Shown here: positions 1 through 64,000 of the stretch, piece by piece
Layout: every line of letters starts with the position of its first letter
Position numbering within the stretch: the stretch's first letter is position 1
From: TPA_inf: Saccharomyces
Lineage: Eukaryota
Reading direction: 5' to 3'
NCBI GenBank assembly: GCA_000146045.2
Contig: BK006938.2
Location: 1 to 64,000, forward strand
DNA length: 64,000 nucleotides
Position numbers and translations under genes: made by a program
Notes under the pieces: generated by a model
The model's database searches: none
Told to the model about the DNA's origin: nothing
What the model saw: only the letters and a program-made list of their open reading frames with translations

Positions 1-155
1 ACACCACACCCACACCACACCCACACACACCACACCCACACACCACACCCACACCCACACACCCACACCCACACACCACACACCACACCACACCACACCC
101 ACACCCACACCACACCCACACCCACACACCACACCCACACCCACACACCACACAC
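1..155. repeat. TEL04L: Terminal telomeric repeat tract, (C1-3A)n on the + strand, i.e. a left-arm chromosome end
   Basis: Seen directly: irregular CACACCCACACACCACACCC units from base 1, degenerating at about 155 into TACCCCTAACACTACCC. C-rich strand written 5' to 3' at the start means a left telomere. Confidence 0.9.
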
Positions 156-3761: not shown

Positions 3762-3836
3762 ATGCATTCAAATAATAGTCGCCAAATACTGATACCTCAT
3801 CAAAATGAAAATATGTTTCTAACGGAACTGTATTAG
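3762..3836 (+). CDS. Tiny 24-aa ORF ([24 protein letters not shown]), matching the coordinates I recall for the SGD putative ORF YDL247W-A
   Basis: ATG at 3762 and TAG at 3834-3836 verified by hand translation. Too short to judge coding potential; it overlaps a longer antisense open frame (see findings). Confidence 0.2.
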
Positions 3837-5984
3837 ACCATGCGCTCAGTTAGCTGGAGTCGCGTTGGTTAACAAATTAGCTAAATTCACCATTACTTTA
3901 CTTAAAGACCTATCACCACAAAGGAAATGGCGATTCTACAACAGGACCAGCTTCACTGTTTTTACCGTTGATTTAAAGATCACCTTTTGACTATTTTATA
4001 TGCCAATTCAGAAACCGTTATAATAGAAGTTTTCTACTACAAAATTTACAGGATGTTGTAGCTTGATTGCATAATATTTTTTTAAAACGGATAACCACCA
4101 ACCCTCGTCAGTGACTTCCCATTATGAAATTTTTCTCTTCTTATCCTTTTTGGTACCCTTTTTCCTATCATGCGCCTCGAAACAACTTCCATAGTACGTG
4201 CCTGCTACTGTGAGTAGTTTACTGCCGCAGTGAAACACTATACTGATTCAGCATCCATCAGTAAGTGCGCGCTAAAACGACAACTTTTTCGTACCTTTAC
4301 AAGTAAGGAGTGGTTAAGGTGTATAGCTCATACTAGATATTAAACTTCGGAGAAAAGTCCCTGTTTCAATGACAAATATGAGTTGCACAATAGAATTTTT
4401 ATATCTATGATTACGCTTGGTAGGATGAAACTCTTAAATTCCGTTATAAGTTTTATAAATCGCCGTAATTGCAAAAATACAGGGTGATGCGTATAAGTCT
4501 CATAAAAATCAAATCATTCCCTCTATTGCAACCATATCAAATTTTGATGATGATTATTTTACAATTTTCATTGCCATGGATGAAAATAAACGCTGATATC
4601 TTTATAATTAACCCGGAATGGAAATTGTGCACAGTACATCAATGGCGTTTCGAGTATTAAGACCTGTGATTTAGAGCCAATTAGCCAAGTAAAGCGACAT
4701 TTCCTTTCTATGTTTGGCATCTTTTTTTTTTGGCCTTAAAACAGTGTTTCTGTAAAATTAAGGGCCAACTCTTACAATAGTAATGAGATTAATAAGGCCC
4801 AAAGAATATTTTGGCCATTTCTTTTTCGTACAACCATATAGTTTTCTCAAGTAGCGACGAAAGAGAGATAACTGAAACAAAATGTCATGGAAGAAGTGCT
4901 TATATTAAAAAATCTATGTCGGAAATATTTCTATAGGGAAAAGTATACTAAAATCTTACTCGAGCTTTGAAATGAACAAGCCTAAACCGCCCAATTCCAA
5001 GATCTTTAATATACTATAACTTGAAAGTCATACCTGTTATATCACTCCAGAGGTTATTGTGGGAGCATATTTAATGCTTTGTGGGTAAGCTTGATAAACT
5101 GTAGTTCTACCACTTTTCCCAGGATACTGATTATGGTAAAAGTTCTTATTTGTCTTACGACTTAGATTTAGCACTCACATTTGTCATCATATGTTGAAAA
5201 ATCAAGCTGGAATTTATTGGTGGATCTTTCATCTCCATTTATACTTTTTACTTGTTTTTCTCCAAGCAAAAAGATTTCACGTTGTTCGGGAGGTAAATAT
5301 GAAGTAGAAGAGCAGTCAGGTAGAGTGGTTATCCCATCAGCCAGAACCTGTCCGTAAACAGGTTGTGGACTACAGTATGTGTGTTTTTTTCTTTCTAGTT
5401 ACTCAATATGGATATTTTGGTGACTATAAAGACCTCTCGTAAATTTCTGAAAATATGCTTCGGTTCGAATCTGTGGTCTGCAGTGCAGCGTGTTGGTATT
5501 TTACCGACAGTTTTAGCGAAATATGTATAGATCTGTCACGCTTGCAACATCGCGACAGGTCGGTATACTAAAATTACAGCATGAATTTCTGATCTATAAT
5601 CACACTGTTGCAGTTTCCAGAGAGTCAATCATATTAAGTCCTCTGTTTGAATCAATGTTGGCTTTGTTCTTCTGGAGAGGAATCAGCTCGTTATATGTTT
5701 GTCTTTTTCTCTGCTCGAGAGTCATCGCGACATTCCACACCCCGCGTTTTACGTGCACAGAATCTTTCGTAGAAGGGAGCATTTGACATCCTGTCAGCCA
5801 TATGCAATGAGTATGCCACAAGTTCATGATAGTGTTGACTATAGAATATAAAAAAAAGGTGGGGTCATCTGTAATCGTTGTTTGTAATTCTTAGAGGCCT
5901 GTTCTTGGAATTATTATGCAAAGATTACCATCACAAAATCTAACACAAATAGAGATACAGGTCTTGTAAAGCCATTACCTAGCT

Positions 5985-7814
5985 ATGAAAAACTTATCTT
6001 TTCTCATAAACAGAAGAAAGGAAAATACAAGTGACTCGAATGTATACCCAGGAAAGGCTAAGTCGCATGAACCCAGCTGGATAGAAATGGATGATCAAAC
6101 TAAGAAGGACGGCTTAGATATTGTTCATGTTGAGTTCAGTCCGGATACAAGAGCGCCAAGCGATAGCAATAAAGTAATAACAGAGATATTTGACGCTACT
6201 GAGGATGCCAAGGAGGCAGACGAAAGTGAAAGAGGAATGCCACTTGCGACAGCATTGAATACATATCCCAAGGCAGCAGCTTGGTCACTATTGGTCTCTA
6301 CAACTTTAATCATGGAAGGGTACGACACAGCTATTCTTGGAGCTTTCTACGCCTTGCCTATTTTTCAGAGAAAGTTTGGCTCACAAAATGACAAAACTGG
6401 AGAATGGGAAATTTCAGCGTCATGGCAAATCGGGCTGACCTTATGTTATATGGCAGGTGAAATTGTGGGGCTACAGCTAACGGGGCCCTCCGTGGATCTT
6501 GTTGGAAATCGTTACACATTGATTATTGCATTGTTTTTTTTAGCTGCCTTCACTTTTATACTGTACTTTTGCAATAGTTTAGGCATGATTGCTGTGGGAC
6601 AAGCATTGTGCGGGATGCCATGGGGTTGTTTTCAGTGTTTGACGGTGTCTTACGCTTCTGAAATATGCCCATTGGCTCTGAGATATTACCTTACAACCTA
6701 TTCAAACTTGTGCTGGTTATTTGGACAACTTTTTGCAGCTGGAATCATGAAAAATTCTCAAAAAAAATATGCGGATTCAGAATTAGGATATAAACTACCA
6801 TTTGCCCTACAGTGGATTTTGCCAGTTCCTTTAGCACTGGGAATTTTTTTTGCACCTGAATCTCCATGGTGGCTAGTTAAAAAAGGAAGGTTTGATGAGG
6901 CAAGGAGATCACTTAGAAGAACTTTAAGCGGCAAGGGACCTGAAAAAGAAATACTAGTAACTCTGGAGGTGGACAAAATAAAAGTGACTATAGATAAGGA
7001 AAAGAGACTCACAAGTAAAGAAGGCTCCTATAGTGATTGTTTTGAAGACAAGATTAATCGAAGAAGAACGAGAATTACTTGTCTCTGCTGGGCTGGTCAA
7101 GCCACTTGTGGTTCAATACTAATAGGTTATTCAACTTACTTTTACGAAAAGGCTGGCGTTAGTACTGAAATGTCCTTCACTTTTAGTATTATTCAATACT
7201 GTCTCGGTATTTGTGCTACATTTCTATCTTGGTGGGCGTCAAAGTATTTTGGTAGATATGACCTTTACGCTTTTGGACTAGCCTTCCAAACCATTGTTTT
7301 TTTCATTATTGGCGGTTTGGGGTGCTCAAGTACGCACGGTTCCAAAATGGGAAGTGGTTCTCTTTTAATGGCTGTAGCATTTTTTTACAATTTAGGAATT
7401 GCCCCGGTCGTTTTTTGCCTAGTCTCTGAAATGCCATCTTCAAGACTAAGAACGAAAACAATCATTCTAGCACGTAACACTTATAATGTGGTCAGTATCA
7501 TATGTAGCGTTCTCATCTTATACCAACTGAACTCTAAGAAGTGGAACTGGGGCGCTAAGTCAGGCTTTTTCTGGGGTGTCTTATGCTTTTGTACTTTAAT
7601 CTGGGCTGTGGTTGACCTACCAGAAACTGCCGGAAAGACTTTCGTGGAAATAAATGAGTTATTTAAACTTGGAGTTTCTGCAAGAAAGTTCAAATCGACG
7701 AAAGTAGATCCGTTTGTTGTCAAAACCCCCCTAAAGACGTCTCTCATAACGACCCCAAGGGAGATATCGAAGCTTCCATTGCAGAGGAATAGCAATGTAT
7801 CCCATCACCTATGA
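5985..7814 (+). CDS. MPH2: Alpha-glucoside (maltose) permease of the MAL31/AGT1-like MFS family, 609 aa
   Basis: ATG at 5985; 609 aa; 12-TM sugar porter with [12 protein letters not shown] motif; identical paralog MPH3 sits on chrX-R, so assignment to MPH2 is by flanking chrIV genes. Confidence 0.9.
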
Positions 7815-8682
7815 GCTAATGAACATTTATCGACACAGGTAAATAGGTAACTATGGTATTTACTCTACATGTTACGGAGTATAATACACGTAGATTTGTT
7901 TCTTCCTCATATTCCCATGACATGTCTCAGTAATTGAACTCAAAGTAACATTTAGCTTTCTTCTTGATCATTGCGTTTGGAAATGTATAGTTAGAGAAAA
8001 GATTCTTTCTCATCCGAGTATGGCGCGTGAAGAAAATGAAGATGGAGTTGTCGAAACAAATGGTCATCGACATTAGTTTAATTGTCATAGTAACAGTCTG
8101 GGCACTCACTTCGTACATCCCTTATACATTTAAGTGCAATTTTACCTATTCTAAAAATAGAAAAAATCTCGAATGAGCAGTTCTGGCAGTACTGAAACTG
8201 AGTTAAAAATCTATCAACTGGAAGTAATGCGGTAGTTTTATATATGAGCAATATATGCCGTCAAATTATATGTACAGTAGCTACCAGAGCGGTTATTATA
8301 TTGTTCTTAATCAATAATAAACAAATCAGAGTATATTTCATAATTTCCTCTTACATTTTTAAGAAAAAAGGGTAACATTTATTCCTCATTGATCCTATCT
8401 TTCAATCCTAATAAGCGACAATATTCTTAGCATATACGGGAGAGTTGCTCTCACTCATATCATATAGCTCTCTATATGTGTCAGCGCTCTGATTTGTAAA
8501 ATAACATATTCTTAAGCTTTTTCCGCCCATTTTACAATATTAGATATGAAAAAGTTAGTTTTTAAGTCATTAAACGTGTCTACTATTTAAATTTTTATTT
8601 TTCGGTGTTATTTTCAAGTATTACTGCTTTTGAATTGGTCTATATATATGGACATGAACCAGTGCCGAAAAGTATTCACTTT

Positions 8683-9756
8683 TCATTCAGGACCAAAGAT
8701 AATAGTCTTGACTACCTCTCCACCATGGGCAATGTTGTAGTCGTAAGCCTTGGCTGCATCTTCAAATTTAAATTTGTGGGTTATCAATGGCTTGACATTG
8801 ACTTTTCCTGTGGCAACCAAGTTCACAGCGTCACGATAATCACCGAATGAATAACGGAAACATCCAATCAATTTCATTTCCTTTCCACTAACTTCAGCAA
8901 TTGGAAAATTAGTGTAGTTTTTACCCATACCGACTTGCACCATGGTACCTCCAACCTTAGTTGTTTTGACAGCGGCATCAATGCAAACATCAGCACCTGA
9001 ACACTCAAACACCACATCTGCGTGATTTCCGCCCAAAAGCTTTTGGACCCCATCGGCCAAGTCTTGGGCTTTATCGGTGGAAAACTGGGAAGAATTGAAA
9101 GTGTTTGTGGCTCCGAAATCTTTTGCTCTCTGTAGCTTGTTGTCGAATACATCGACGAAAATGACGTCGGTGGCACCAAAAGCGCGGGCGACTGCGCCAG
9201 TTAAAAGCCCCACAGGACCTGCACCAAATACAACAACTTTGGTACCAAAGCGGACCCCAGCCAATTTATTAGAGTGTACACCGACTGATAAGGGTTCGAC
9301 ACAAGCGCCCTCTTCATAACTGACGCCTTCTGGCAATTTCACAAGGAAATCTTCTGGAGATAAATAGTACTTCACAAGAGTACCATCAATTGGAGGAGTT
9401 GCAGCAAATGCCATATGTGGGCAAAGGTTATAGCTCCCTTCTTTGGTCTCATCAGAGTAACGGCTAGGAACACCAGGTTCAATAGCAACACGGTCACCAA
9501 CTTTGACCCTTGTGACGGCATCACCAACTTCCACAACCTGTCCGCTTGATTCATGACCTAAAACCATTGGCGCCTTCAATATGTACTTACCAATACCACC
9601 GCTTCTATAATAATGAATATCAGAGCCGCAGATACCAGTGGCTTTAATAGCTAACTTGACATAATGGGGGTCCTTAATGGTAGGGATTGGTCTTTGCTCG
9701 ATGGCAATATCGCCGACTTTCTCTAGAACTACTGCAGGGTTACTATTTTGAGACAT
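8683..9756 (-). CDS. SOR2: Sorbitol dehydrogenase, zinc-containing medium-chain dehydrogenase, 357 aa
   Basis: Start ATG (plus-strand cat at 9754-9756) gives MSQNSNPAVV; the 360-aa track ORF starts at a TTG (9763-9765), rejected. GHESSG zinc-ADH motif and GAGPVG Rossmann motif present. SOR1 on chrX is near-identical; named SOR2 by synteny. Confidence 0.9.
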   Translation of the reverse strand: MSQNSNPAVVLEKVGDIAIEQRPIPTIKDPHYVKLAIKATGICGSDIHYYRSGGIGKYILKAPMVLGHESSGQVVEVGDAVTRVKVGDRVAIEPGVPSRYSDETKEGSYNLCPHMAFAATPPIDGTLVKYYLSPEDFLVKLPEGVSYEEGACVEPLSVGVHSNKLAGVRFGTKVVVFGAGPVGLLTGAVARAFGATDVIFVDVFDNKLQRAKDFGATNTFNSSQFSTDKAQDLADGVQKLLGGNHADVVFECSGADVCIDAAVKTTKVGGTMVQVGMGKNYTNFPIAEVSGKEMKLIGCFRYSFGDYRDAVNLVATGKVNVKPLITHKFKFEDAAKAYDYNIAHGGEVVKTIIFGPE

Positions 9757-11656
9757 ATTTTTCAATTTTTTTTTTTAGTATTTTTTCTTGTTGATTGTTT
9801 GATGTTTCTTTTTTCCACTTATACTATATCTCTTCATAAAGATGAACGGTAAGACATTGAGCCTTTTATATGTCGAATTTTTTTCTATATATTAAAGAGA
9901 GAGTAAGCAACTTATGGCAATGAACATACTTTAGATGGAAGAAATGCGGTTAGCAAGGTGATACAGAGGCTTCATGTGACCGGAGAAAGGAGATACGAGA
10001 CCGGAGATAATAGAATATGATGAACCTTAACTGTTGAAGAGGAAGAAAGCATTAAAGTGCTTGGTAAAGACAACAGTTTTCTGAACGAAGTTCCTTCATT
10101 ATTCACCCCAACCAAGCCCGATGGTTCCTGAAGCTAGGCGTAACTTTCCAACTTCAACATAGATTTTGCCACTCGGCAGTAGCTGTCCGCGAAAACTTTA
10201 TTTTCTGCACCTATATGTGCCTAAAACTTACTCTCCTGCAGGGAGCTCGAGAAAATAAGGGATTGTGGGGTAATCTTTAGTGGGGGTATCTCCTGTGCCT
10301 TCCCCCGTAATTTGTTTGCCTTCATGCCTGCCTCTCCTTGTCTCAGGTCACACCATTCACGATTCCTTCATGCCTGCTACCGATTTAGTAGTAAGAAAAG
10401 CCGTGGCAAACAGTCAGGTTTACACCAGCTTTTTTCCTTGGAATTGTTAGCCCGCCTTTTGGTCGTAATGCACACCACAATAATACGTCATTAGTCAAAG
10501 TTTTCACAAAAAATTGATAAACTAAGCTTTCGTACTAATTGTAGAGATGTTGATTCGACAGATGAACGGTTCTATAGTTTCAGTGGACGTAGCGCTTTGA
10601 TATTAAAAAATTATGTACAATATCATGTTAATTAGTTGAAAAATCATAATGTCAATTATCGCAAAATGAAAAGAAGAATTGGTACTCATCCAGAGTTTCA
10701 ATTTAGCAAATAAAGTAATAGACAATTCATCAAGCTTTGAACTTTGTCGTAAGACCTTTCAAAAAGGAAATAAGTAAAAAGATAAAGAAACTCAATAGAC
10801 TTGGAAAAAGGATAGAAATGGACATATGCCGACTTAAATGCTAAAACCCTCGACTGTTTTGAACCCATTGTTTCAATACCGTGTCTTTAACGGTTACTAC
10901 CACAGTTAGGTCACAAATCTTTTAGTGGCAGATGCTCCTTGAACTACTAATGACCCAGGTCACCCAGAGAGGTCAGAGACTTTGTACGGGTACCTATATG
11001 AGGTCTTTTTACTGTATTACAAAAAAAATCTTACTCCATTCGCTATTATGTTGTGTGGAAACATGCCTCAAAATGTTTTCACCGCAAAAAGTATGCTTGT
11101 TGTATTTGCCAAGTTAACGAAGCATGAGAAAGTTTGCCCCCCCGAGTTGAAACAAAGTTATCTCTTCTAATATGATGGTTGTTTGTGCGGCCACGCTAAT
11201 AACGAGCTCAAATATTCCCTTTATAGTAACAACTGAATATTTGGGAAGAATCTATATTTCTATATTATTGTATACACTTTATTTAGAGGAATGGTACAGT
11301 GTTACGTTCCTGGAAATGCATTTTTAAGGATCTTCCATAAGCACTCAAGTGGACCTATGTTGACTTCCCCATCTTCATCACCACTCCGTTTTCACTCCAT
11401 AAGCATCCTACTTTTTATACTCTGCTTTGCCTTAAAGAAACAGAACTTCGTACAATGTTGCCTTAACCAAACGCTTTCTTTCACTAAATAACTCGTTATT
11501 TTATATAGTACTAGTAGTCCGAAAAAGGGAGTTTGCAAAGAAACTCGTAGTTTTTTGTTGATTAAATTTGAAATTACGTGTCACTTCGTTTTACAGTAGG
11601 CCCTATTTTTTTTCAAGAATTTATCTCTTAGCATGTTTATCAAGCGCGCATATTGA

Positions 11657-13360
11657 TCAATTAAAACTCTTTGGGAACTTCAAAACTTCTTTCCAGCTTT
11701 TCTTCTTAGCCTCAGTTTCCCTGGAAGAAGCTCCTCTCCTTGAGGGTGGTACCCAAGATGCAGATTTCCATGGTTTTATACCTTCTTCATATAGTAACTG
11801 GATTTCCTCCAAAGATAGACCAATTGTTTCTGGTAAAAAGAAGAAAACGTACAAAAACATAGCAACCAAACAACCTACGAACACATAACCATAATAGAAG
11901 TGGATAGACCCAGTAATGAATGGTGTGAAAAAACCAATCAAGAATTGCCATAACCAGTTGAATGCAGTCGAAATTGACATTGCTTTAGATTTGACCTTCG
12001 AAGGGAATGACTCGGCAACCACAATATAAGCAACAGGGGCCCATGTCGTTGCAAAGCAGAATATATAGAAGCATGTGAACACAATCATGGCATTACCTGC
12101 ACCTTTCGAGGATGGACCATCCTGGCCATGAGGGTAAAGACATTTTACCCCGATACTTGCAAATATGACCATACAAGCCATCATTGAAGCCGCTCCGAAT
12201 AACAGACATTTACGACGGCCTATTTTGTCTACGACCATAACAGCAATAATAGTGGAGAAGAAATTCACTGTACCTAGGACGATCGAAGTCTCAAACCCAT
12301 CAGTAAGCCCAACTGATTTGAAAATGGTAGTTCCGTAGAAGAAGAAGTAGTTTTCACCAGTAAGTTGCAAAAAGGTTTGCACAAGAATACCTGTGATCAA
12401 ACGTTGAAGGACTTTTGTTTTGACGGAGAAAAGTTCTTTCCATGAGGCTTCCCCTAGTTCTCTTTGGGCAAGGACACCGGCGTTGATTTCATCAGCCTGT
12501 TTGAGTACCCATGGATCCTCTGGTGAAACCTTGTTGATCTTGGCGATGGAGACACAGGCCTCTTCATGTCTCTCACATTCAATCAGATATCTTGGGGACT
12601 CTGGAACTAATAACATGCCAACGATGATAATTAGAGCCCACAGAAAGCATAGTCCCACAGGAATCCTCCATTGCGCAGTATTACTATACTTCCTTGTTCC
12701 ATAAACGCTACAATAACCCAAGAAAATACCGAAGGTCATGTTAAGTTGGTACAATGAGACAAGTCCACCTCTCAAATCTGTGGGGGCTATTTCAGATAAA
12801 AGCATTGGACACAACACCGAACAGCCACCAGCACCAAGACCGTAGATGATCTTACCGACAAAGTATTGGTACCATTTGTGATTCGAACTGATCTGAATAA
12901 TTGCACCAACCATATATACCAAAACCACGATTACAATTGCTAGCCTTCTACCTAAAGTATCAGCAAGTCTCGCAAAAGCAACACCGCCAATGGAACATCC
13001 TACACTGAACATGGCCACGAGAAGACCCATACGCACGTTGCTCAAATAATACTCACCAGTACTGTGCTTGTAAGAACCAAAATTCATTTTAAAGTTATCC
13101 ATATTGATGAAGCCTGCAGTAATACCACTATCCCAACCAGGTAAAAAACCGCCAAAGGATACAGGATAGCATAGTAAGTAGATAATAAGGTAACCTAAAA
13201 AGCCTCTCTTCGGTGCGTCTGGCGTATTTCCATTAATGACTTCTTTGTCATAAAACCCGTCTGACCATTCTTTCTCTCCGGGTGGCTGTACATGAACGTC
13301 AGCTGCACTACTGTTTAGATTATCTGCATTAATTTCTGGTGAGGACTGTTCGCTTGCCAT
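11657..13360 (-). CDS. HXT15: Hexose transporter family member, 567 aa
   Basis: ATG at 13360 (minus); 567 aa; sugar-porter signatures PESPRYL and DTLGRR, and PETIGLSLEEI near the C-terminus; HXT16 on chrX is the paralog; named by synteny. Confidence 0.9.
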   Translation of the reverse strand: MASEQSSPEINADNLNSSAADVHVQPPGEKEWSDGFYDKEVINGNTPDAPKRGFLGYLIIYLLCYPVSFGGFLPGWDSGITAGFINMDNFKMNFGSYKHSTGEYYLSNVRMGLLVAMFSVGCSIGGVAFARLADTLGRRLAIVIVVLVYMVGAIIQISSNHKWYQYFVGKIIYGLGAGGCSVLCPMLLSEIAPTDLRGGLVSLYQLNMTFGIFLGYCSVYGTRKYSNTAQWRIPVGLCFLWALIIIVGMLLVPESPRYLIECERHEEACVSIAKINKVSPEDPWVLKQADEINAGVLAQRELGEASWKELFSVKTKVLQRLITGILVQTFLQLTGENYFFFYGTTIFKSVGLTDGFETSIVLGTVNFFSTIIAVMVVDKIGRRKCLLFGAASMMACMVIFASIGVKCLYPHGQDGPSSKGAGNAMIVFTCFYIFCFATTWAPVAYIVVAESFPSKVKSKAMSISTAFNWLWQFLIGFFTPFITGSIHFYYGYVFVGCLVAMFLYVFFFLPETIGLSLEEIQLLYEEGIKPWKSASWVPPSRRGASSRETEAKKKSWKEVLKFPKSFN

Positions 13361-44064: not shown

Positions 44065-45906
44065 ATGGCTGAAGGTGTTTTCCAAGGTGCTATCGGTATC
44101 GATTTAGGTACAACCTACTCTTGTGTTGCTACTTACGAATCCTCCGTTGAAATTATTGCCAACGAACAAGGTAACAGAGTCACCCCATCTTTCGTTGCTT
44201 TCACTCCAGAAGAAAGATTGATTGGTGATGCTGCCAAGAACCAAGCTGCTTTGAACCCAAGAAACACTGTCTTCGATGCTAAGCGTTTGATTGGTAGAAG
44301 ATTCGACGACGAATCTGTTCAAAAGGACATGAAGACCTGGCCTTTCAAGGTTATCGACGTCGATGGTAACCCAGTCATCGAAGTCCAATACTTGGAAGAA
44401 ACCAAGACTTTCTCCCCACAAGAAATTTCCGCTATGGTTTTGACCAAGATGAAGGAAATTGCTGAAGCTAAGATTGGTAAGAAGGTTGAAAAGGCCGTCA
44501 TTACTGTCCCAGCTTACTTTAACGACGCTCAAAGACAAGCTACCAAGGATGCCGGTGCCATTTCTGGTTTGAACGTTTTGCGTATCATCAACGAACCTAC
44601 TGCCGCTGCTATTGCTTACGGTCTAGGTGCTGGTAAGTCCGAAAAGGAAAGACATGTTTTGATTTTCGATTTGGGTGGTGGTACTTTCGATGTTTCCTTG
44701 TTGCACATTGCTGGTGGTGTTTACACTGTTAAATCTACTTCCGGTAACACTCACTTGGGTGGTCAAGATTTCGACACCAACTTGTTGGAACACTTCAAGG
44801 CTGAATTCAAGAAGAAGACTGGTTTGGACATCTCCGACGATGCCAGAGCTTTGAGAAGATTGAGAACTGCTGCTGAAAGAGCTAAGAGAACCTTATCTTC
44901 TGTCACTCAAACTACCGTTGAAGTTGACTCTTTGTTTGACGGTGAAGATTTCGAATCCTCTTTGACTAGAGCTAGATTTGAAGACTTGAACGCCGCATTG
45001 TTCAAGTCTACTTTGGAACCTGTTGAACAAGTTTTGAAGGATGCTAAGATCTCTAAGTCTCAAATCGACGAAGTTGTCTTGGTTGGTGGTTCCACCAGAA
45101 TTCCAAAGGTCCAAAAGTTGTTGTCTGACTTCTTTGACGGTAAGCAATTGGAAAAATCTATTAACCCAGATGAAGCTGTTGCTTACGGTGCTGCTGTTCA
45201 AGGTGCTATCTTGACCGGCCAATCCACATCTGACGAAACCAAGGACTTGTTGTTGTTAGATGTTGCTCCATTATCTCTAGGTGTTGGTATGCAAGGTGAC
45301 ATGTTCGGTATCGTTGTTCCAAGAAACACTACTGTTCCAACCATCAAGAGAAGAACCTTTACTACATGTGCTGACAACCAAACCACCGTTCAATTCCCAG
45401 TCTACCAAGGTGAACGTGTTAACTGTAAAGAAAACACTTTGTTGGGTGAATTCGACTTGAAGAACATCCCAATGATGCCAGCTGGTGAACCAGTCTTGGA
45501 AGCTATCTTCGAAGTTGATGCTAACGGTATCTTGAAGGTTACTGCCGTCGAAAAGTCTACCGGTAAGTCTTCTAACATCACTATCTCTAACGCTGTTGGT
45601 AGATTGTCTTCTGAAGAAATTGAAAAGATGGTTAACCAAGCTGAAGAGTTCAAGGCTGCCGATGAAGCTTTTGCCAAGAAGCACGAAGCTAGACAAAGAT
45701 TGGAATCCTACGTTGCCTCCATCGAACAAACTGTCACTGACCCAGTCTTGTCTTCTAAATTGAAGAGAGGTTCCAAGTCCAAGATTGAAGCTGCTTTGTC
45801 CGATGCTTTGGCTGCTTTGCAAATCGAAGACCCATCTGCTGATGAATTGAGAAAGGCTGAAGTTGGTTTGAAGAGAGTTGTCACCAAGGCCATGTCTTCT
45901 CGTTAA
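44065..45906 (+). CDS. SSB1: Ribosome-associated Hsp70 chaperone, 613 aa
   Basis: ATG at 44065 ([21 protein letters not shown]); track ORF starts at a TTG, rejected. Hsp70 signatures IDLGTTYS and DLGGGTFD present; very strong codon bias; SSB2 is on chrXIV, so SSB1 is assigned by position between PTP1 and HO. Confidence 0.95.
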
Positions 45907-46270
45907 GACTGCATTCATCACATATATATGAATATTACTTATATTGTATATAAATTTTGTTTTCTCTTAACTTTGTATCCTTAATAAAATAAAATTCACA
46001 AGTATCACAATTAAAATATTTGTTTTTCTTTCGCGTAAATATTTAGCTTGATAACTGTTACTGATATGTCTGAGGAAAGTTGATCAAGACCCAATAATAA
46101 TCTATATACTGGTTGAAACAAATCAGTGCCGGTAACGCTTTTTGTATCTTGAGATGGCGTATTTCTACTCCAGCATTCTAGTTAAGAAAAAGTCTAAAAA
46201 TGGTTTTTTTCATCCAAAATATTAAATTTTACTTTTATTACATACAACTTTTTAAACTAATATACACATT

Positions 46271-48031
46271 TTAGCAGATGCGCGCACCTGCGTTGTTACC
46301 ACAACTCTTATGAGGCCCGCGGACAGCATCAAACTGTAAGATTCCGCCACATTTTATACACTCTGGTCCTTTAACTGGCAAACCTTCGGGCGTAATGCCC
46401 AATTTTTCGCCTTTGTCTTTTGCCTTTTTCACTTCACGTGCTTCTGGTACATACTTGCAATTTATACAGTGATGACCGCTGAATTTGTATCTTCCATAGC
46501 ATCTAGCACATACTCGATTTTTACCACTCCAATCTTTATAAAAATACTTGATTCCCTTTCTGGGACAAGCAACACAGTGTTTTAGATTCTTTTTTTGTGA
46601 TATTTTAAGCTGTTCTCCCACACAGCAGCCTCGACATGATTTCACTTCTATTTTGTTGCCAAGCAAGAAATTTTTATGGCCTTCTATCGTAAGCCCATAT
46701 ACAGTACTCTCACCCTGGAAATCATCCGTGAAGCTGAAATATACGGGTTCCCTTTTTATAATTGGCGGAACTTCTCTTGTTTTGTGACCACTTCGACAAT
46801 ATGACAAAACATTCTGTGAAGTTGTTCCCCCAGCAACATTACAGTCGTATGTAAATTGACATTGGACTTTTCTTCCTTCAATGATTTCCTCCCTAGCTGA
46901 CCTGGTCGTCACAGTAGCTGACATACCAAGAGATCTTGAAATATGGACAATTCCGTCCATAATGGATGAATAAACAGTTTGAATTGCTATTTTATAAGAT
47001 TCAGGGCCTTCGCCCTTTTTCACAACGTACCCATCTGAGTCGATCAAGCCGGCTAAGAATGCTTCACGAACTTCTATATGCTCGCCGTACATAAATTCAG
47101 GGATTTGCTTCTCTCCATCAAGATCCCTTTTAAACTTTAAAATTGTGACAGCTTTCCAGAATGGATTATTTTTCCTCAAATTCCTTGTCTTCCTGTTTTC
47201 ATCTGGACCATCTCCATAATGAAGCCTTACATGTTTGGCACGTAGCGGAACGTGATCGTCACAAACCGTAAGGTAGAGACCCCAGATTTTCGCATTTTCT
47301 CTTAAACTCTCCATTAGCTTAGGATCCAAGCTATCTACTGAGATTTCTGGCTCTTTTGTTGTACTGTCACCTAACCACAGACCAAGCATCCAAGCCATAC
47401 TTTTTACAGCAGGAGTTACAAGGTCACTACGTCCAGTGAGAAATTTAGATAAAACACCATTTCCTGCGAGTACTGGACCAAATCTTATGCAGCTAGAAAT
47501 TCTCAATTGAGCATCAAGATAATCCAAATCTCTAACTTCAATGTCAAAGTTGAAATATTCTCCTTTAGAGCGCTCCATTTCTTCTATGAAGCGTTTTGCG
47601 GCAAACTCACCTTCAACTGTCATTGGGAATGTCTTATGATGGTTTTTTGGAATTATTATTATCCTACCATCAAGCGTCTGACATTGCTGCAGATTTCTCC
47701 ATCTCACTTTATATTTGGTGGCATTTCTACCACTTTTTTCCAACAGTGGTTTGGTAGGGACCCTGACTGACAATTTATGACCTGCAGTACATTGTAATGC
47801 AAGACGCTGATAAACTGTTCTACGCCTGGGATCTAACCTACCAGGTTCACCTTCAAAAGCTCTGTGTTTGGTTTTTTGCTGTATATTATAGATTTTCTGA
47901 TAGCCCTGTGTGACATTTATGACGCGGGCAGCGGAGCCATCTGCGCACATAACGTAAGAGTTAGCCGTGACGTTTGCGATGTCTTTAATTTCACCGTTAG
48001 CCATCAGAATAGTCGTGTTTTCAGAAAGCAT
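46271..48031 (-). CDS. HO: Mating-type switching homing endonuclease, LAGLIDADG family, intein (Hint)-derived, with C-terminal zinc finger, 586 aa; sequence corresponds to the inactive ho allele
   Basis: ATG at 48031 (minus); LAGLIDSDG motif at residues 327-335; Cys-rich C-terminal zinc-finger region (CRGCC...CVACP...CARC...CINC...CIKCGG); residues A189, S223, S405, L475 match the four substitutions I recall for the ho allele. Confidence 0.95.
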   Translation of the reverse strand: MLSENTTILMANGEIKDIANVTANSYVMCADGSAARVINVTQGYQKIYNIQQKTKHRAFEGEPGRLDPRRRTVYQRLALQCTAGHKLSVRVPTKPLLEKSGRNATKYKVRWRNLQQCQTLDGRIIIIPKNHHKTFPMTVEGEFAAKRFIEEMERSKGEYFNFDIEVRDLDYLDAQLRISSCIRFGPVLAGNGVLSKFLTGRSDLVTPAVKSMAWMLGLWLGDSTTKEPEISVDSLDPKLMESLRENAKIWGLYLTVCDDHVPLRAKHVRLHYGDGPDENRKTRNLRKNNPFWKAVTILKFKRDLDGEKQIPEFMYGEHIEVREAFLAGLIDSDGYVVKKGEGPESYKIAIQTVYSSIMDGIVHISRSLGMSATVTTRSAREEIIEGRKVQCQFTYDCNVAGGTTSQNVLSYCRSGHKTREVPPIIKREPVYFSFTDDFQGESTVYGLTIEGHKNFLLGNKIEVKSCRGCCVGEQLKISQKKNLKHCVACPRKGIKYFYKDWSGKNRVCARCYGRYKFSGHHCINCKYVPEAREVKKAKDKGEKLGITPEGLPVKGPECIKCGGILQFDAVRGPHKSCGNNAGARIC

Positions 48032-48269
48032 TTTAAAGTATAGATAGAATTGATTGCTGCTTATGAGGATATGGATTTAGAGCTAATAGTTGTAATAGAA
48101 ATAAAAGCCATTTAGAATAGGAATTGAATACAATTTTATGAGCTTTAAATATTTAATGATGAATAGTGCGTTTAGAACGCTTCATCATGCTTCAACAAGC
48201 TTCTGCAAACCTCATTTGAGTAGCAATAGCTGTTTACTTTTTTCCGCGACTTTATTCGAAGTTATGGTG

Positions 48270-48895
48270 AACTTTTCGTGGTTTCACACCTAATAACGCC
48301 CAGCGGTAGTACAATTCAAAGTAGTAGGTACCAATGGTAGTACTAGTGGGTGATAGTAGCAAATTTCTCTATGAAAATGAATTGTTGCTCTGCAATGATG
48401 TTAATGTGGACATGACATGAATTTTCGCGATATGTTGATGTAAATAATAACATGATTTTCGTGGATCATTTCGTAAACCATAGGTTTATTTCGTGAATTA
48501 CTAAGAGAAAGGCATAGAAACAGGACTTGCGAACCCTTTCTGTAATATGTCATAATATTTCAATACACGCACAAAAAAGGTACGTTAATTTCCATGGTAA
48601 TCGTGTATTTAGTTACATCACTTTTCGTGACACACATGAATACATTTGCCCTTAAGCCCTGTGTAGGATTGATTTCTTTTTTCGTGACGCACATGTCTTC
48701 AACTGCATCAATTTCCATGAGACACACACGTCTACCATGTTGTCAGATCTCATGAATCTTTCATGTATTCATTCACATCATTTTCGTGGATCCTCTAATT
48801 GTATCGAGATCACTTTTCGTGATCCGCTAATCAGCGACGGTCACATTAGGTTTGCCAAGTCAGGGTATGAACCATACGATCAGTTTTCGTGAACC
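48270..48895 (-). promoter_or_regulatory. HO upstream regulatory region URS2: array of about nine SCB elements (CACGAAA, seen as TTTCGTG on the + strand) plus a1-alpha2 operator-like sites
   Basis: TTTCGTG at about 48273, 48456, 48488, 48623, 48679, 48781, 48815, 48885, plus TTTCGCG at 48422 and TTTCGTAAA at 48469; a1-alpha2-like TCGTGTATTTAGTTACATCA at 48601-48620 and TCATGTATTCATTCACATCA at 48761-48780. The array lies about 240-860 bp upstream of the HO ATG, as for URS2. Confidence 0.85.
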
Positions 48896-49315
48896 TGGTA
48901 CGTATATTGTGGCGTTTGTGTATATTTTCATTCTTTGACAACAATCAATACCAACCTCAAATAGGAAAAGTAATAAGTTTGGCGTTACACCCCAAAAGAC
49001 GCCAAACGGATCGAACTTACTCAATAGCAATTAGCGAGACAAAACCTACGTTAAGACCTGTAACCGATTTATCAAAGCACTCTGCGGTTCTTTCTTGGGA
49101 ATATTACCTGGACATTTTGTGCCCTCAAGAAACGAGGCTCTACGAGCCTGTTGGAGCCCCTCAGACATTAGCCGCCACGAATCAAACTTTTTACGCGATT
49201 CGGCCCAAATCAGTTTCTCACAGATCATTCGTAGAGTGAAAAAGCACATCGATTATTTGATACCCCTTTGGGTTAATTACTGTTGAGGTCTTTTCTATTT
49301 CTGATTGAAATTTTT

Positions 49316-49340
49316 GCTCCAGCATTATAGCATGCTGGTT
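49316..49340. promoter_or_regulatory. Palindromic CCAGCAT..ATGCTGG element about 1.3 kb upstream of HO, candidate Swi5 site of URS1
   Basis: ccagcattatagcatgctgg is a perfect 7-bp inverted repeat carrying two CCAGC half-sites; a further CCAGCA lies at about 49437; the distance from the HO ATG matches the upstream Swi5-binding region. Confidence 0.5.
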
Positions 49341-51114
49341 TTTTTTTTAAATTGATGTATCTCATCGCAGGCACGGGCAGTACAGTGCCCTGAGCGTAGG
49401 GAAAAATGAAAAAAAGGATGTAACTTTTAACATAATTCCAGCACGCAGCGATTGGGTATAATGAAGATTGTTAAGTTCAACAACATGTGAAATTCTTAGC
49501 TCCGCAACTTGCTTGAATTATGAGCTCTAAGATTCAAGAAGTAAATAGGTCATATAATGGAATGATAGTAGTACTTGATAAAGGAACCATGTGATCTTAC
49601 GTTGATATGAAAATAATTCTCTCACAGAAGTCAGTTTGTATGACTAACATAGAGAGTAATTGCTTTTCGGATAAAATCGCACCTAACAAAGATTACCTTT
49701 TGTAAAGCCTCCAGAACAGCTATGAATGTTCGTTATTCTACGCACTTTCTTTCATACATCTTGATCCGCCTTTTTTGATGTAGGTTTTAACGCGGCAAAA
49801 CATATTAATTTTTCTGATTTGGAAAAATAAAGAGTTAGTTCTGCCACGCCATTTTAAGTCCAAAGGCACAATTTTACGTTGGAACTAAACGGTAAAGATC
49901 AAATATCACCTTTATTCTTTTTTGGTATGCATCGATTTCTTTGCCAGTAAGAACTACGTGCAACTCTACATTAGATCAAAATATAACGGATCATAAATGC
50001 AAACAACATTTGTCCAAAAGAAACAAAAATGTTGGCGTTTGTCTCGAACATGACACAATACTCCTTGATCGAGGGACATTGCCCGATTAACTATGATTTA
50101 TACTTTTTACTACAGGTACTCGTTCTCCCTACTATTTCACCAGTATACGGTCGTTTTATGATTCATTTATTGCCTATAATGGTAAAAAGGGACATCTTAA
50201 CCTTACGTGTTGCAATGAGACCATTCTTTTCGATTCATCAACTGTGAAATTTCTGAAATCCAGTACAATGCGAAACGCTACCGATAATGGCACCGTCTTT
50301 TGAATTATGAGGCCCAGATATGGCGTTCAATCTTCAACAAAAAAATGAATATCAAAACTAAATTCTATCTGGATAACAATCTTTCTTTGGTTTGCAGAAA
50401 TATCATTAAAAAACAATCCATAACTACTAAGGAAGGGTATAAATGGTTTGGTTTACTAATTTTATATTTTGATTTGATTAGCAATTATAATCTCTAATAT
50501 ACTATTTCTGTAGCCAAAAATCTGCAATGTCAATAAGTAGCAAGTGCCGCTTACTCGTGAGAATATCAACCTTATAGCATATGTTTTCTATTTTTTTTTT
50601 TTGCTTATGGAGATAATGAACATTGTACACATGAACAAAGTGGTAGTTCTCTCTCCTTGATTTTTTGTGCTTGCGATATATATAATTGTTACATTCAATG
50701 GCCATGCTAAATAAAGGTTTTAGCTTTGTTTCACTCGTGCCCAGGATAATTTTAAGGCGCAAACATCCAAATAATGAAGAAAAGGATAACGATTGTCCCA
50801 GGTCTAAAACATTTTTTAATAATAGCCGTCATTAGCCTTGCAACAGTACAACAACGCCGATGGGAAAGGATTGCAATTCTATTTGTAATTAATAGGTTGT
50901 ATAATAATTTACGATATGGCCTTGTGGTAACTATTTATGAATACTGGTGTAGACTTATTTATAATCCTAGAGAGTAAACCTCTTCTTGTCAAGATATGAA
51001 AAATACAAATTTAGAGACAGAAGTATTACGTGTAAACTTTACAGAACCACTTCTCCATTATAGCTACAATGTGAATTGAACTTTCCTTGAATGTTGAGAA
51101 AAACTATATTAAAA

Positions 51115-62243: not shown

Positions 62244-64000
62244 TTACGAGGTGGGAACGGCTCCGGCGTCATCGTCATTATCCTCCTCCTTTTTCACGGT
62301 GACGCCATTTTGCGCGGCAAGAAGTCGCAGAGGATTGACGGTAGCATTAATTGCGCAATCAAGACTCCCTGAATCAGGAGCCGCTGCAACCTTCGGATGG
62401 GCCAGCTGTTGTTGCAATTCCCGAAAGGTGCATTCAATTGGGCACCAGATCTGGAGTGCCACGGTAGTGTCAGGGAACAGCGTGAGCGAGGAGGTTATAT
62501 TGAATTTAAATGAATGGCCGAGAAATTGTGCCAATTGCGTATATTTTTCCTCAAGAGGCTGACGCTGTAAGTAGGCGCTTGAGCGGTTGAAAAAATAAGC
62601 AAAGTTCTTGGAGGTAATGATGTGTAGTTGCAACACTCGCTCCGGGGCCAAGCCGCGGGTTTGTAAAAGTGGGAGCTCATTCGTGATATGGAAGCAGAGA
62701 TCAGATGCGTGGTACTCGATGGCGATGATACGGCCCTCGCAACTGTATAATGTGTTGCTCTTGTGTGTTTGCTGTGGGCGCGGGAGGCGAGCCGAGGAGT
62801 CCAAGAGAGAAGATATATCTGTGAACTTTACATCGAAGGAGGACACGTCTGCATTCAGGTCGGGTATGTGTTCTGCGAGAGCTGGTGTAGTGGGTGATTT
62901 TTTTGGTTCATGCTTTACTTCATCGAACCTCAGTTTCGCGAGATGAGAACCGTTTCTATGTATGGGGAAAAACCTCCGGTACTCTTCGAAATAGCGTGAA
63001 ATTGCGGATTCGCCAATTCTCTTGAACGCTCGTTGGTAGAACAATCTTAAATGTTCGCACTGTGAAGGCGAGGCGATGCTGCTTATTTGGGAATGCGGGA
63101 CCGGCTCACATTCGCGCACAATGGCATTCAATTTGCCGTTGTACATTTTCACTTTTATATTCATCTTACAAACTATGCCGTATTGCGAAAGGTTTTCATC
63201 GCGGCCGTTCTGTAGATCTCTTAGCCCGTTGTTGAATATTTTTCTGAGCTTAGAGTCAAACGTTTCGAATTGGTTTTTGTACATGATGGCTTTGAAGCCC
63301 TCGTTCAGCTCTAACTTGTTCTCGTAATCTATTAGATATCTGTCGTAAAGATAGTTTTGGACGATATCGTTCTTGGTAAAATCGCTAAAGACAAAAGATA
63401 TAAAGGCAGGTTTATCAAACGAGCAGGAGACTAGCATGCCAAACATTGTTATGTATTTGGTCTCAAAAGTGTCGAGTCCCAACTGACAGAATTCGATGGT
63501 GGGGTCTTTCCTTGCCATTTTGCTCATCCTTGTGCGAGACGGATCGATTGACGCCGACGATTGCGCAGGCACCTGCACCTGCGCCTGCGCCTGCGTGTCG
63601 GTGCTAATGTTCTTCAAACTCCATACTGCCATACCTGGGCTGGCGGTCTTGTCATTGTCCCACAGGATCCTTTCAACTTCGACGGAAATTCGATCAGGCT
63701 TTTCCAGTAGTAAAATATCCGATATCTTGTCGCTTTGACAGTTTAAAACACCGAAGAGCTCACAGATTCGCTCTCTCGTCGGGATAACGATCTCAATGCA
63801 ATTGACGCCTGGCACCAGGACCTTGTCTGGGACATTTGGTAAGAGCTGCGTAAAATATAATTTCAATGTGCAATATTTGAACTCATTTATACTGGCGAAT
63901 TGAGGTGGATTCATGCCAACAATTTTGCCCTCTAACCTTTCAACTGAGCCTACACTAGCTAGGGAAAGTTGCTCATAACTGATGGCTTTGCGGATTGAGG
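62244..64000 (-). CDS. CDC13: Telomere-capping ssDNA-binding protein, 3' (C-terminal) portion only; the CDS continues past the window end
   Basis: Stop at 62244-62246 (minus); the frame is open on the minus strand through the end of the window; contains MNPPQFASINEFKYCTLKLYFTQLLPNVPDKVLVPGVNCIEIV, which I recognise as the Cdc13 OB-fold DNA-binding domain region; full gene is 924 aa, so about 340 N-terminal codons lie beyond base 64000. Confidence 0.85.
   Translation of the reverse strand, partial: SIRKAISYEQLSLASVGSVERLEGKIVGMNPPQFASINEFKYCTLKLYFTQLLPNVPDKVLVPGVNCIEIVIPTRERICELFGVLNCQSDKISDILLLEKPDRISVEVERILWDNDKTASPGMAVWSLKNISTDTQAQAQVQVPAQSSASIDPSRTRMSKMARKDPTIEFCQLGLDTFETKYITMFGMLVSCSFDKPAFISFVFSDFTKNDIVQNYLYDRYLIDYENKLELNEGFKAIMYKNQFETFDSKLRKIFNNGLRDLQNGRDENLSQYGIVCKMNIKVKMYNGKLNAIVRECEPVPHSQISSIASPSQCEHLRLFYQRAFKRIGESAISRYFEEYRRFFPIHRNGSHLAKLRFDEVKHEPKKSPTTPALAEHIPDLNADVSSFDVKFTDISSLLDSSARLPRPQQTHKSNTLYSCEGRIIAIEYHASDLCFHITNELPLLQTRGLAPERVLQLHIITSKNFAYFFNRSSAYLQRQPLEEKYTQLAQFLGHSFKFNITSSLTLFPDTTVALQIWCPIECTFRELQQQLAHPKVAAAPDSGSLDCAINATVNPLRLLAAQNGVTVKKEEDNDDDAGAVPTS

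What the first reader, a model, noticed from the sequence alone, without database searches (positions are those of the whole stretch)
46271..48031. HO is a domesticated intein-type homing endonuclease, and this copy carries the ho loss-of-function substitutions
The 586-aa protein has a Hint/LAGLIDADG core (LAGLIDSDG at 327-335) fused to a C-terminal Cys-rich zinc-finger DNA-binding tail. This is the architecture expected for a VMA1-intein-derived endonuclease captured by the host for mating-type switching. By direct residue counting it has Ala189, Ser223, Ser405 and Leu475. I recall the inactive ho allele of heterothallic laboratory strains as T189A, G223S, L405S and H475L relative to functional HO; H475L falls in the zinc finger. 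If that recall is right, the window comes from an ho strain (S288C background), and the whole downstream promoter machinery below regulates a dead gene.
Basis: partly seen in the sequence, partly recalled or inferred. Interest (0 to 1): 0.6.

Follow-up and report, generated by a model that had tools for sequence, protein, structure and literature searches.

The report
Lab-strain inactive ho mating-switch gene

Summary
A 586-aa ORF lies on the minus strand at 46271-48031 and has Ala189, Ser223, Ser405 and Leu475. The LAGLIDSDG motif is at 326-334, not 327-335. The intein-like part matches the Pfam families Hom_end_hint and Hom_end (E about 1e-45) and solved PI-SceI structures (E = 1e-62; model TM about 0.9). 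The splice-junction residues are gone (Met1; Lys464-Ser465), and a Cys-rich tail with five invariant Cys pairs follows. The protein is identical to S288C Hop.

Published work names the same four substitutions as the laboratory ho allele. It calls 667G>A (G223S) the inactivating change and the other three neutral.

My comparisons agree. Gly223 is invariant in 31 orthologues. It is the only one of 95 invariant columns at which this allele differs. Position 475 is variable and is not a zinc ligand. A syntenic sister-species HO under purifying selection has Leu475 (CTT), so Leu is ancestral there. Leu405 is conserved as Leu or Met, so L405S may weaken the enzyme.

The long cell-cycle promoter upstream is intact. 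HO's origin is now traced to WHO homing elements rather than direct capture of the VMA1 intein.

This is textbook biology and already known.

The parts
46271..48031 (-). Complete ho ORF: 586 codons plus the stop codon at 46271-46273.
   Evidence: The protein is identical to S288C Hop.
47477..48031 (-). N-terminal part of the Hint (protein-splicing-like) domain, about residues 1-185. Met1 stands where the intein nucleophile Cys1 would be. The block-B residues T82 and H85 are retained.
   Evidence: Pfam Hom_end_hint spans residues 3-461. PI-SceI domain I (1gpp) aligns to residues 3-189. T/S82 is found in 30 of 31 orthologues and H85 in 31 of 31.
46787..47476 (-). LAGLIDADG endonuclease domain, about residues 186-415. 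The boundaries are approximate.
   Evidence: Pfam Hom_end matches residues 309-421 and LAGLIDADG_3 matches 321-377. The model matches PI-SceI at TM 0.85-0.92.
47360..47386 (-). First LAGLIDADG-type motif, LGLWLGDST (residues 216-224), with catalytic-position Asp222 followed by the mutant Ser223.
   Evidence: All 31 orthologues read [LI]GLW[LIM]GDGT. The motif lies at the end of model helix 207-221.
47363..47365 (-). Codon 223, AGT (Ser). This is 667G>A, or G223S, the best-supported inactivating change.
   Evidence: Gly is invariant in 31 of 31 orthologues, and this is the only one of 95 invariant columns at which the allele departs. Literature.
47030..47056 (-). Second LAGLIDADG motif, LAGLIDSDG (residues 326-334), with Asp333.
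   Evidence: D333 and G334 are invariant. The motif lies at the end of model helix 319-333.
47465..47467 (-). Codon 189, GCA (Ala). This is T189A, at a variable linker position.
   Evidence: The orthologues have T, S, K, N, E, V and others here. Described as having no apparent effect (PMC11708222).
46817..46819 (-). Codon 405, TCA (Ser). This is L405S, at a position that is Leu or Met in all orthologues. It may weaken the enzyme.
   Evidence: Leu in 27 and Met in 4 of 31 orthologues. It lies in model helix 403-410, where pLDDT is above 90. The literature lists it as neutral.
46607..46609 (-). Codon 475, CTT (Leu), the so-called H475L. By the outgroup this is the ancestral state, and the residue is not a conserved zinc ligand.
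   Evidence: The sister-species locus L001 also has CTT. The orthologues have P, K, N, R, V, A and others here.
46637..46786 (-). C-terminal part of the Hint domain, about residues 416-465. It ends in Lys464-Ser465 where an intein has His-Asn.
   Evidence: The PI-SceI alignment pairs 'fllgnkievksc' with 'FLLANQVVVHAC'.
46274..46636 (-). Cys-rich zinc-finger tail, residues 466-586. The invariant pairs are C466/C470, C486/C489, C508/C511, C522/C525 and C558/C561.
   Evidence: No Pfam family covers this part at E <= 1.
48274..48891 (-). Cluster of eight CACGAAA elements (SCB-type cell-cycle boxes), all in the HO orientation, at -249 to -860 from the ATG. This is the URS2 part of the HO promoter.
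   Evidence: Eight of the window's 11 matches fall in these 618 bp. Nine are conserved in the sister-species promoter at similar offsets.
48397..49434 (.). Six a1/alpha2-operator-like sites (CATGT-N8-ACATC, at most one mismatch).
   Evidence: Six of the 13 window matches lie here, against 4.3 expected for the whole window.
49319..49338 (-). Palindrome CCAGCATGCTATAATGCTGG at -1307. This is where the Swi5 site of URS1 is expected; that assignment rests on my own knowledge.
   Evidence: It is conserved with two changes at -1289 in L001.
48032..51114 (-). The 3,083-bp intergenic region between ho and the upstream ArfGAP gene (GCS1-like). This is the unusually long HO regulatory region.

Best explanation
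Window 46271-48031 (minus strand) is the S288C-type ho allele of Saccharomyces cerevisiae HO. HO encodes the site-specific endonuclease that cuts MAT to start mating-type switching.

The protein is a non-splicing, intein-derived Hint plus double-LAGLIDADG endonuclease, about 30% identical to PI-SceI/VDE. It is fused to a C-terminal tail with five conserved Cys pairs. It has no exteins and has lost the splice-junction residues, so it acts as a free-standing host enzyme.

In this allele the enzyme is inactive mainly because of G223S (667G>A). That change replaces the invariant Gly that follows the catalytic-position Asp222 at the end of the first LAGLIDADG helix. T189A is a neutral polymorphism. 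'H475L' is in fact retention of the ancestral Leu. L405S may reduce activity further.

The 3-kb promoter is intact, with its SCB boxes, a1/alpha2 operators and Swi5-type site, so an inactive protein is still expressed under normal mother-cell, G1 and haploid-specific control.

Shown here: the sequence, the domains, the conservation and the allele identity. Taken from the literature: that G223S abolishes activity. Inferred: how it does so, by disturbing the active-site and helix-packing geometry.
For: The ORF and the four residues are confirmed. Pfam matches Hom_end_hint, Hom_end and LAGLIDADG_3 above their cut-offs. PI-SceI matches at E = 1.3e-62 over residues 3-466, with Met1 for Cys1 and Lys-Ser for His-Asn.

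The AlphaFold2 model has mean pLDDT 87.3. It matches PI-SceI structures at E = 5.5e-40 with target-normalised TM 0.85-0.92.

The exact sequence equals S288C Hop. The flanking genes are an Hsp70 (SSB1-like), an ArfGAP (GCS1-like), a septin (SHS1-like) and Cdc13, and the window starts with a 155-base C/A-only run (telomeric, by my reading). This fits the left end of chromosome IV.

Gly223 is invariant in 31 orthologues of 43-96% identity, and it is the only one of 95 invariant columns at which this allele differs.

Literature: the four changes define the laboratory ho allele and G223S abolishes function (PMC11754353). Ser223 is sufficient to inactivate, and an A189/G223/S405/L475 allele still switches (PMC11708222). 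667G>A is classed as loss of function and the other three as neutral (PMC12799175).

The sister-species syntenic HO is 90.7% identical in nucleotides, with 134 synonymous against 21 non-synonymous codon differences. It carries ACA/GGT/TTA/CTT, that is T, G, L, L.

Promoter elements are clustered and conserved.
Against: The older literature attributed the defect to H475L (cited in PMC3223075). The species and phenotype of the outgroup locus L001 are not named; its function is inferred only from purifying selection and synteny. Only 15 of the 283 cluster members were listed, so the allele survey is a small sample.
Confidence: 0.95

Rival explanations
1. The zinc-finger change H475L is the inactivating lesion, because it destroys a zinc ligand or DNA contact. 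G223S would then be incidental.
For: Meiron et al. 1995 first proposed this, as cited in PMC3223075 and PMC11708222. Residue 475 lies between the invariant Cys470 and Cys486 of the tail.
Against: Position 475 is Pro in 15 of 31 orthologues and otherwise K, N, R, V, A and others. His occurs only in some S. cerevisiae alleles, so it is not a conserved ligand. The sister-species HO, which is under purifying selection, has Leu475 with the same CTT codon. Several S. cerevisiae alleles combine Leu475 with Gly223. An allele with Leu475 and Gly223 still switches, and 1424A>T is classed as neutral.
Confidence: 0.04
2. ho is a double hit. G223S is the null change, and L405S is an independent hypomorphic change, so S223G reversion alone would give only weak or delayed switching.
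For: Position 405 is Leu (27) or Met (4) in all 31 orthologues, and Ser405 was seen only in this allele among those sampled. It sits in a confidently modelled helix, 403-410. The A189/G223/S405/L475 allele is described as having only 'some' activity. Since Leu475 is ancestral, Ser405 is the more likely cause of that reduction.
Against: PMC12799175 lists 1214T>C as neutral. PMC11708222 places residue 405 outside the conserved motifs. No quantitative data were available here.
Confidence: 0.3
3. The allele is still a working or partly working HO, and the strain's heterothallism, if any, lies elsewhere, for example in HML/HMR or MAT.
For: The ORF is intact, with no frameshift or stop codon. Both catalytic-position Asp residues and all ten invariant Cys are present.
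Against: Ser223 replaces an invariant Gly. The literature reports that Ser223 is sufficient to inactivate an otherwise active allele. The sequence is identical to that of the heterothallic reference strain.
Confidence: 0.02
4. On evolutionary route: HO arose by direct host capture of the VMA1 intein (VDE), and not through a mobile WHO-type element.
For: PI-SceI is the closest solved relative and scores higher against HO (215 bits) than the Torulaspora and Lachancea HO-like proteins found here (112-167 bits, 26-31% identity).
Against: HO shares with WHO proteins, and not with VDE, the zinc-finger tail, the absence of exteins and the loss of motif G. Coughlan et al. 2020 show that WHO elements are active homing elements and propose the route VDE to zinc-finger fusion to WHO to HO (PMC7282813). 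Similarity scores are not a phylogeny, and WHO genes evolve fast.
Confidence: 0.15

Closest known systems
S. cerevisiae HO (YDL227C), S288C ho allele
   Same: The 586-aa protein sequence is identical. It has the same four diagnostic residues, A189/S223/S405/L475, and the same neighbours and telomere-proximal position.
   Different: Nothing detected. This is that allele.
PI-SceI / VDE, the VMA1 intein homing endonuclease (PDB 1VDE, 1LWS, 1EF0)
   Same: Both have a Hint splicing-type domain split around a double-LAGLIDADG endonuclease domain. Identity is about 30-32%, E = 1e-62, TM about 0.9. The catalytic-position Asp residues and the block-B His are conserved.
   Different: HO has no exteins and does not splice: it has Met1 instead of Cys1 and Lys464-Ser465 instead of His-Asn. 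It carries a 121-residue Cys-rich tail that VDE lacks. It cuts MAT rather than VMA1, and it does not copy itself.
WHO ('weird HO') homing elements of Torulaspora and Lachancea (Coughlan et al. 2020, PMC7282813)
   Same: Both have the intein-like region plus zinc-finger tail, with no exteins and no motif G. Relatives from T. globosa and Lachancea were found at 26-31% identity.
   Different: WHO genes are mobile and sit next to FBA1, which they target. HO is fixed at a syntenic locus between SSB1 and GCS1 and has a dedicated 3-kb promoter.
Other natural ho alleles (G223D, G217R, the 36-residue deletion of 524-559, frameshifts)
   Same: They lose switching through lesions in the same first LAGLIDADG motif or in the zinc-finger tail. 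A G223D allele was seen here (P0043).
   Different: This allele has G223S and keeps residues 524-559. The 8-nt repeat TGTATAAA that flanks the deletion-prone segment is present in two copies, at codons 522 and 558.

Membership tests
LAGLIDADG homing endonucleases, PI-SceI-like (Pfam Hom_end PF05204) | A profile match above the curated threshold. | tested here: met
   Hom_end scores 153.1 bits against a cut-off of 21.1, and LAGLIDADG_3 scores 29.8 against 22.5.
LAGLIDADG homing endonucleases, PI-SceI-like (Pfam Hom_end PF05204) | Two LAGLIDADG helices, each ending in an acidic catalytic residue. | tested here: met
   LGLWLGD222 and LAGLIDSD333 are present, and both Asp residues are invariant in 31 orthologues. 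They lie at the ends of model helices 207-221 and 319-333.
LAGLIDADG homing endonucleases, PI-SceI-like (Pfam Hom_end PF05204) | The conserved Gly that follows the catalytic Asp of motif 1 (the final ...DG of the motif). | tested here: not met
   This allele has Ser223, against Gly in 31 of 31 orthologues and in PI-SceI (LGLWIGDG). This defect belongs to the allele, not to the gene family.
LAGLIDADG homing endonucleases, PI-SceI-like (Pfam Hom_end PF05204) | Site-specific DNA cleavage. | not testable with these tools
   This needs a MAT-cleavage assay. The literature reports that the S288C allele is inactive.
Inteins (self-splicing Hint-domain elements) | The Hint fold and profile, including the block-B T/S-x-x-H. 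| tested here: met
   Hom_end_hint scores 157.6 bits. T82 and H85 are conserved. The fold matches PI-SceI.
Inteins (self-splicing Hint-domain elements) | An N-terminal nucleophile (Cys or Ser) at intein position 1. | tested here: not met
   HO residues 3-13 align to PI-SceI residues 3-13 (1dfa_A, query 3-463 on chain 3-452), so the initiator Met1 falls at the position of Cys1.
Inteins (self-splicing Hint-domain elements) | A C-terminal His-Asn followed by a +1 Cys, Ser or Thr. | tested here: not met
   Lys464-Ser465 replace His-Asn. Only Cys466, at the +1 position, is kept, and it is invariant.
Inteins (self-splicing Hint-domain elements) | An in-frame position inside a host protein, with exteins on both sides. 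| tested here: not met
   The ORF starts at Hint residue 1, and what follows is a zinc-finger tail rather than a host protein.
HO/WHO intein-zinc-finger fusion proteins | [quoted passage not shown] | tested here: met
   There are five invariant Cys pairs in residues 466-561. The definition comes from PMC7282813.
HO/WHO intein-zinc-finger fusion proteins | For HO proper: a fixed syntenic locus, not adjacent to FBA1. | tested here: met
   The ArfGAP and septin genes lie upstream of HO both in the window and in sister-species locus L001, and the Hsp70 gene lies downstream in the window. No aldolase gene is adjacent.
S288C-type ho allele | A189, S223, S405 and L475 together. | tested here: met
   The set is defined in PMC11754353. 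The nucleotide changes 565A>G, 667G>A, 1214T>C and 1424A>T match the codons GCA, AGT, TCA and CTT.
S288C-type ho allele | Heterothallic phenotype, meaning no mating-type switching. | not testable with these tools
   This is a phenotype of the strain and is taken from the literature only.

The most novel reading that the evidence does not exclude
The S288C ho allele may be a double mutant. Besides the null G223S, L405S rather than H475L would be a genuine hypomorphic change. Position 405 is Leu or Met in all 31 orthologues and lies in a well-modelled helix, whereas Leu475 is the ancestral state. This would explain why the A189/G223/S405/L475 'delayed homothallism' allele has only partial activity. 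It would also mean that the current classification of 1214T>C as neutral in population surveys is wrong.
Probability: 0.3. Interest if true: 0.15.

Novelty: already known. Interest (0 to 1): 0.08.

Why it matters
It matters little as a discovery. HO is one of the best-studied yeast genes, and the ho allele of S288C is the reason laboratory yeast are stable haploids.

The check has three uses. First, it identifies the window as the left end of chromosome IV in an S288C-type strain. Second, it corrects a common mis-attribution: the causal change is G223S in the first LAGLIDADG motif, not H475L in the zinc finger. An outgroup comparison shows that Leu475 is ancestral, so 'H475L' is polarised the wrong way round. 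Third, it flags L405S as a candidate hypomorph. That is relevant to surveys that classify HO alleles as functional or not from sequence alone.

Tried and rejected
I considered His475 as a zinc ligand and rejected it. The position is variable in orthologues, and His is seen only in some S. cerevisiae alleles.

I looked for a Pfam family covering the Cys-rich tail. None appeared at E <= 1 on the whole protein.

The tRNA scan of the window found nothing.

The window-wide count of CACGAAA is not enriched (11 against 9.1 expected). Only the clustering is significant: eight sites in 618 bp, all in one orientation.

One literature search failed because a term had fewer than three characters.

I did not use genome contigs, which holds only bacterial and archaeal genomes, or the metagenome scans. 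They cannot add to a yeast nuclear gene.

The primary papers (Meiron et al. 1995; Ekino et al. 1999) are not in the searchable library, so their results are cited through later papers.

The 556-aa ORF listed at 62244-63914 looked like a truncated CDC13. Translation shows the frame stays open to the window edge, so the apparent truncation comes from the ORF lister.

The fold search listed an I-DmoI G20S variant. I did not use it as an analogue, because that Gly precedes the catalytic Asp whereas Gly223 follows it (residue numbering of I-DmoI from my own knowledge).
Full report
**Observation.** A single 586-codon ORF lies on the minus strand at 46271-48031, from ATG to stop. Counting from Met1 gives four residues:
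- Ala189, codon GCA, window 47467-47465
- Ser223, codon AGT, window 47365-47363
- Ser405, codon TCA, window 46819-46817
- Leu475, codon CTT, window 46609-46607

A first, degenerate LAGLIDADG-type motif, LGLWLGDS, lies at 216-223 and contains Ser223.

**What the protein is.** Pfam gives three matches above their curated cut-offs:
- Hom_end_hint, E = 6.6e-46, residues 3-461
- Hom_end, E = 3.5e-45
- LAGLIDADG_3, E = 7.5e-07

The closest solved structures are all PI-SceI/VDE, the VMA1 intein, at E = 1.3e-62 over residues 3-466. An AlphaFold2 model built on 35 homologues has mean pLDDT 87.3 and pTM 0.84. It superposes on PI-SceI crystal structures at Foldseek E = 5.5e-40, with target-normalised TM 0.85-0.92 and 30-32% identity. 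Other intein endonucleases and I-DmoI-type LAGLIDADG enzymes follow far behind.

The alignment to PI-SceI shows that the splicing chemistry is gone:
- The best PI-SceI alignments run from HO residue 3 to PI-SceI residue 3, so the initiator Met falls where the intein's Cys1 would be.
- Lys464-Ser465 replace the terminal His-Asn ('fllgnkievksC' against 'FLLANQVVVHAC').
- Only the +1 Cys (Cys466) is retained. It becomes the first Cys of the tail.

The block-B residues T82 and H85 remain conserved. Residues 466-586 match no Pfam family. They contain ten Cys that are invariant in 31 orthologues, forming five pairs: 466/470, 486/489, 508/511, 522/525 and 558/561. The protein is therefore intein-derived but fails three defining features of an intein: it has no N-terminal nucleophile, no His-Asn and no exteins.

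**Which gene and which allele.** An exact-sequence look-up finds this protein on 31 contigs. The names given include 'Hop [Saccharomyces cerevisiae S288C]' and 'Homothallic switching endonuclease'.

The window begins with a 155-base C/A-only run, which I read as telomeric repeat. It then carries, in order, a DUP/COS gene, two sugar transporters, a tyrosine phosphatase, an Hsp70, this ORF, an ArfGAP, a septin, an RRM protein and Cdc13. This is the left arm of chromosome IV. From my own memory, the coordinates equal the SGD coordinates of YDL227C.

PMC11708222 adds several points, citing Ekino et al. 1999:
- Residue 189 is an unconserved linker position with no apparent effect.
- Ser223 is sufficient to inactivate an otherwise active allele.
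- An allele with Ala189, Gly223, Ser405 and Leu475 retains some switching.

PMC12799175 classifies 565A>G, 1214T>C and 1424A>T as neutral, and 667G>A as the loss-of-function variant of S288C. These four nucleotide changes correspond exactly to the window codons. An older attribution to H475L (Meiron et al. 1995) is still repeated, for example in PMC3223075.

**Independent test by comparison.** I aligned the window protein with 31 orthologues of 43-96% identity and with other S. cerevisiae alleles. The results at each position were:
- **Position 223.** Gly is invariant in all 31 orthologues. Of the 95 columns invariant among the orthologues, this is the only one at which the window protein departs.
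- **Position 405.** It is Leu in 27 orthologues and Met in 4. Ser405 was seen only in this allele.
- **Position 475.** It is Pro in 15 of 31 and otherwise K, N, R, V, A and others. His occurs only in some S. cerevisiae alleles, so it cannot be a conserved zinc ligand.
- **Position 189.** It is freely variable.

Among the S. cerevisiae alleles, Leu475 occurs with Gly223 in several (P0044, P0046, P0049), and Ala189 occurs with Gly223 in P0046. Position 223 is Ser in P0045 and P0050 and Asp in P0043.

A 96%-identical protein (P0001) comes from a syntenic locus, L001, with the septin and ArfGAP genes upstream. Its HO coding sequence is 90.7% identical in nucleotides, and the upstream intergenic DNA about 83%. 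That is divergence at the level of a sister species. There are 134 synonymous against 21 non-synonymous codon differences, which indicates purifying selection. Its codons at the four sites are ACA, GGT, TTA and CTT. Three of the S288C states are therefore derived, but Leu475 is ancestral. The classical 'H475L' is really an L475H change in the lineage of the reference HO clone.

**Mechanism.** The model places Asp222 and Ser223 at the C-terminal end of helix 207-221, and Asp333 at the end of helix 319-333. These are the two LAGLIDADG helices, whose ends carry the metal-binding acidic residues; that role is established knowledge of the family. I infer that the Ser side chain, where Gly is invariant, disturbs the tight turn and helix packing at the active centre and so abolishes cleavage of MAT. 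This inference is consistent with other natural null alleles in the same motif, G223D and G217R. Residue 405 lies in a confident helix, 403-410. Because Leu475 is ancestral, L405S is the better candidate for the reduced activity of the G223/S405/L475 allele. That is a modest, untested suggestion.

**Promoter.** The 3,083 bp between the ATG and the next gene are intact. Three kinds of element stand out:
- Eight of the window's eleven CACGAAA elements lie within 618 bp, at -249 to -860, all in the HO orientation. About 0.09 would be expected there by chance. Nine lie at similar offsets in the sister species.
- Six a1/alpha2-operator-like sites lie at 48397-49434.
- A CCAGC...GCTGG palindrome sits at -1307 and is conserved in L001. 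From my own knowledge, this is where the Swi5 site is expected.

**Origin.** 'Domesticated intein-type endonuclease' is correct. However, the current model (Coughlan et al. 2020, PMC7282813) is that VDE fused to a zinc-finger gene. That fusion gave rise to mobile WHO elements, which target FBA1, and one of them was domesticated as HO. Candidate WHO-type relatives from Torulaspora and Lachancea appeared in my search at 26-31% identity.

**Verdict.** The feature is real and correctly identified, and it is entirely known. The corrections are minor: the motif coordinates, which substitution matters, the polarity of the change at 475, and the route of domestication.

Noticed in passing
window 1-155: The window starts with a 155-base C/A-only run (CCACAC-type repeats), which I read as telomeric C1-3A repeat. 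The window would then begin at a chromosome end, and window coordinates would equal chromosome coordinates.
   Followed up: partly
window 46360-46367 and 46468-46475 (codons 558 and 522 of ho): An 8-nt direct repeat, TGTATAAA, occurs exactly 108 nt apart, at the CINC and CIKC motifs. It flanks the 36-residue segment (524-559) that is deleted in other natural ho alleles such as K7 and JAY291. This looks like a built-in deletion hotspot that removes one zinc-binding module.
   Followed up: partly
window 45277-45921 (-): A 214-aa ORF lies antisense inside the Hsp70 (SSB1-like) gene. It is very probably a spurious ORF kept open by the codon bias of the sense strand.
   Followed up: no
window 62244-64000 (-): The ORF lister reports a 556-aa ORF, but the frame stays open to the window edge. 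The gene (Cdc13 OB-fold domains) is cut by the end of the window and is not truncated.
   Followed up: yes
L001 7076-7212 compared with window about 45900-46036: The DNA just beyond the 3' end of HO, at the end of the convergent Hsp70 gene, is 98.5% identical between the two species. The HO coding sequence is 90.7% identical and the promoter about 83%. This is unusually strong conservation. It might reflect SSB1/SSB2 gene conversion or heavy codon constraint.
   Followed up: no
window 48889-49239 (+): A 116-aa ORF lies inside the HO upstream regulatory region on the opposite strand. There is no evidence that it is a gene. The same region in L001 and L002 carries a called 53-aa ORF about 220 bp upstream of HO with no Pfam hit.
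   Followed up: no
window 1802-13360: This stretch has a typical subtelomeric gene set: a DUP/COS family protein and two MFS sugar transporters. The GC skew is strongly negative in the first 2 kb (-0.415) because of the C-rich telomeric strand.
   Followed up: partly
P0031 and P0052 (S. cerevisiae YJM789): In YJM789 the HO region is annotated as two pieces. One is a 366-aa C-terminal fragment. The other is a 572-aa protein that joins a Hint segment to HisG (ATP phosphoribosyltransferase) domains. This suggests a disrupted or engineered ho locus, or a mis-annotation, in that assembly.
   Followed up: no
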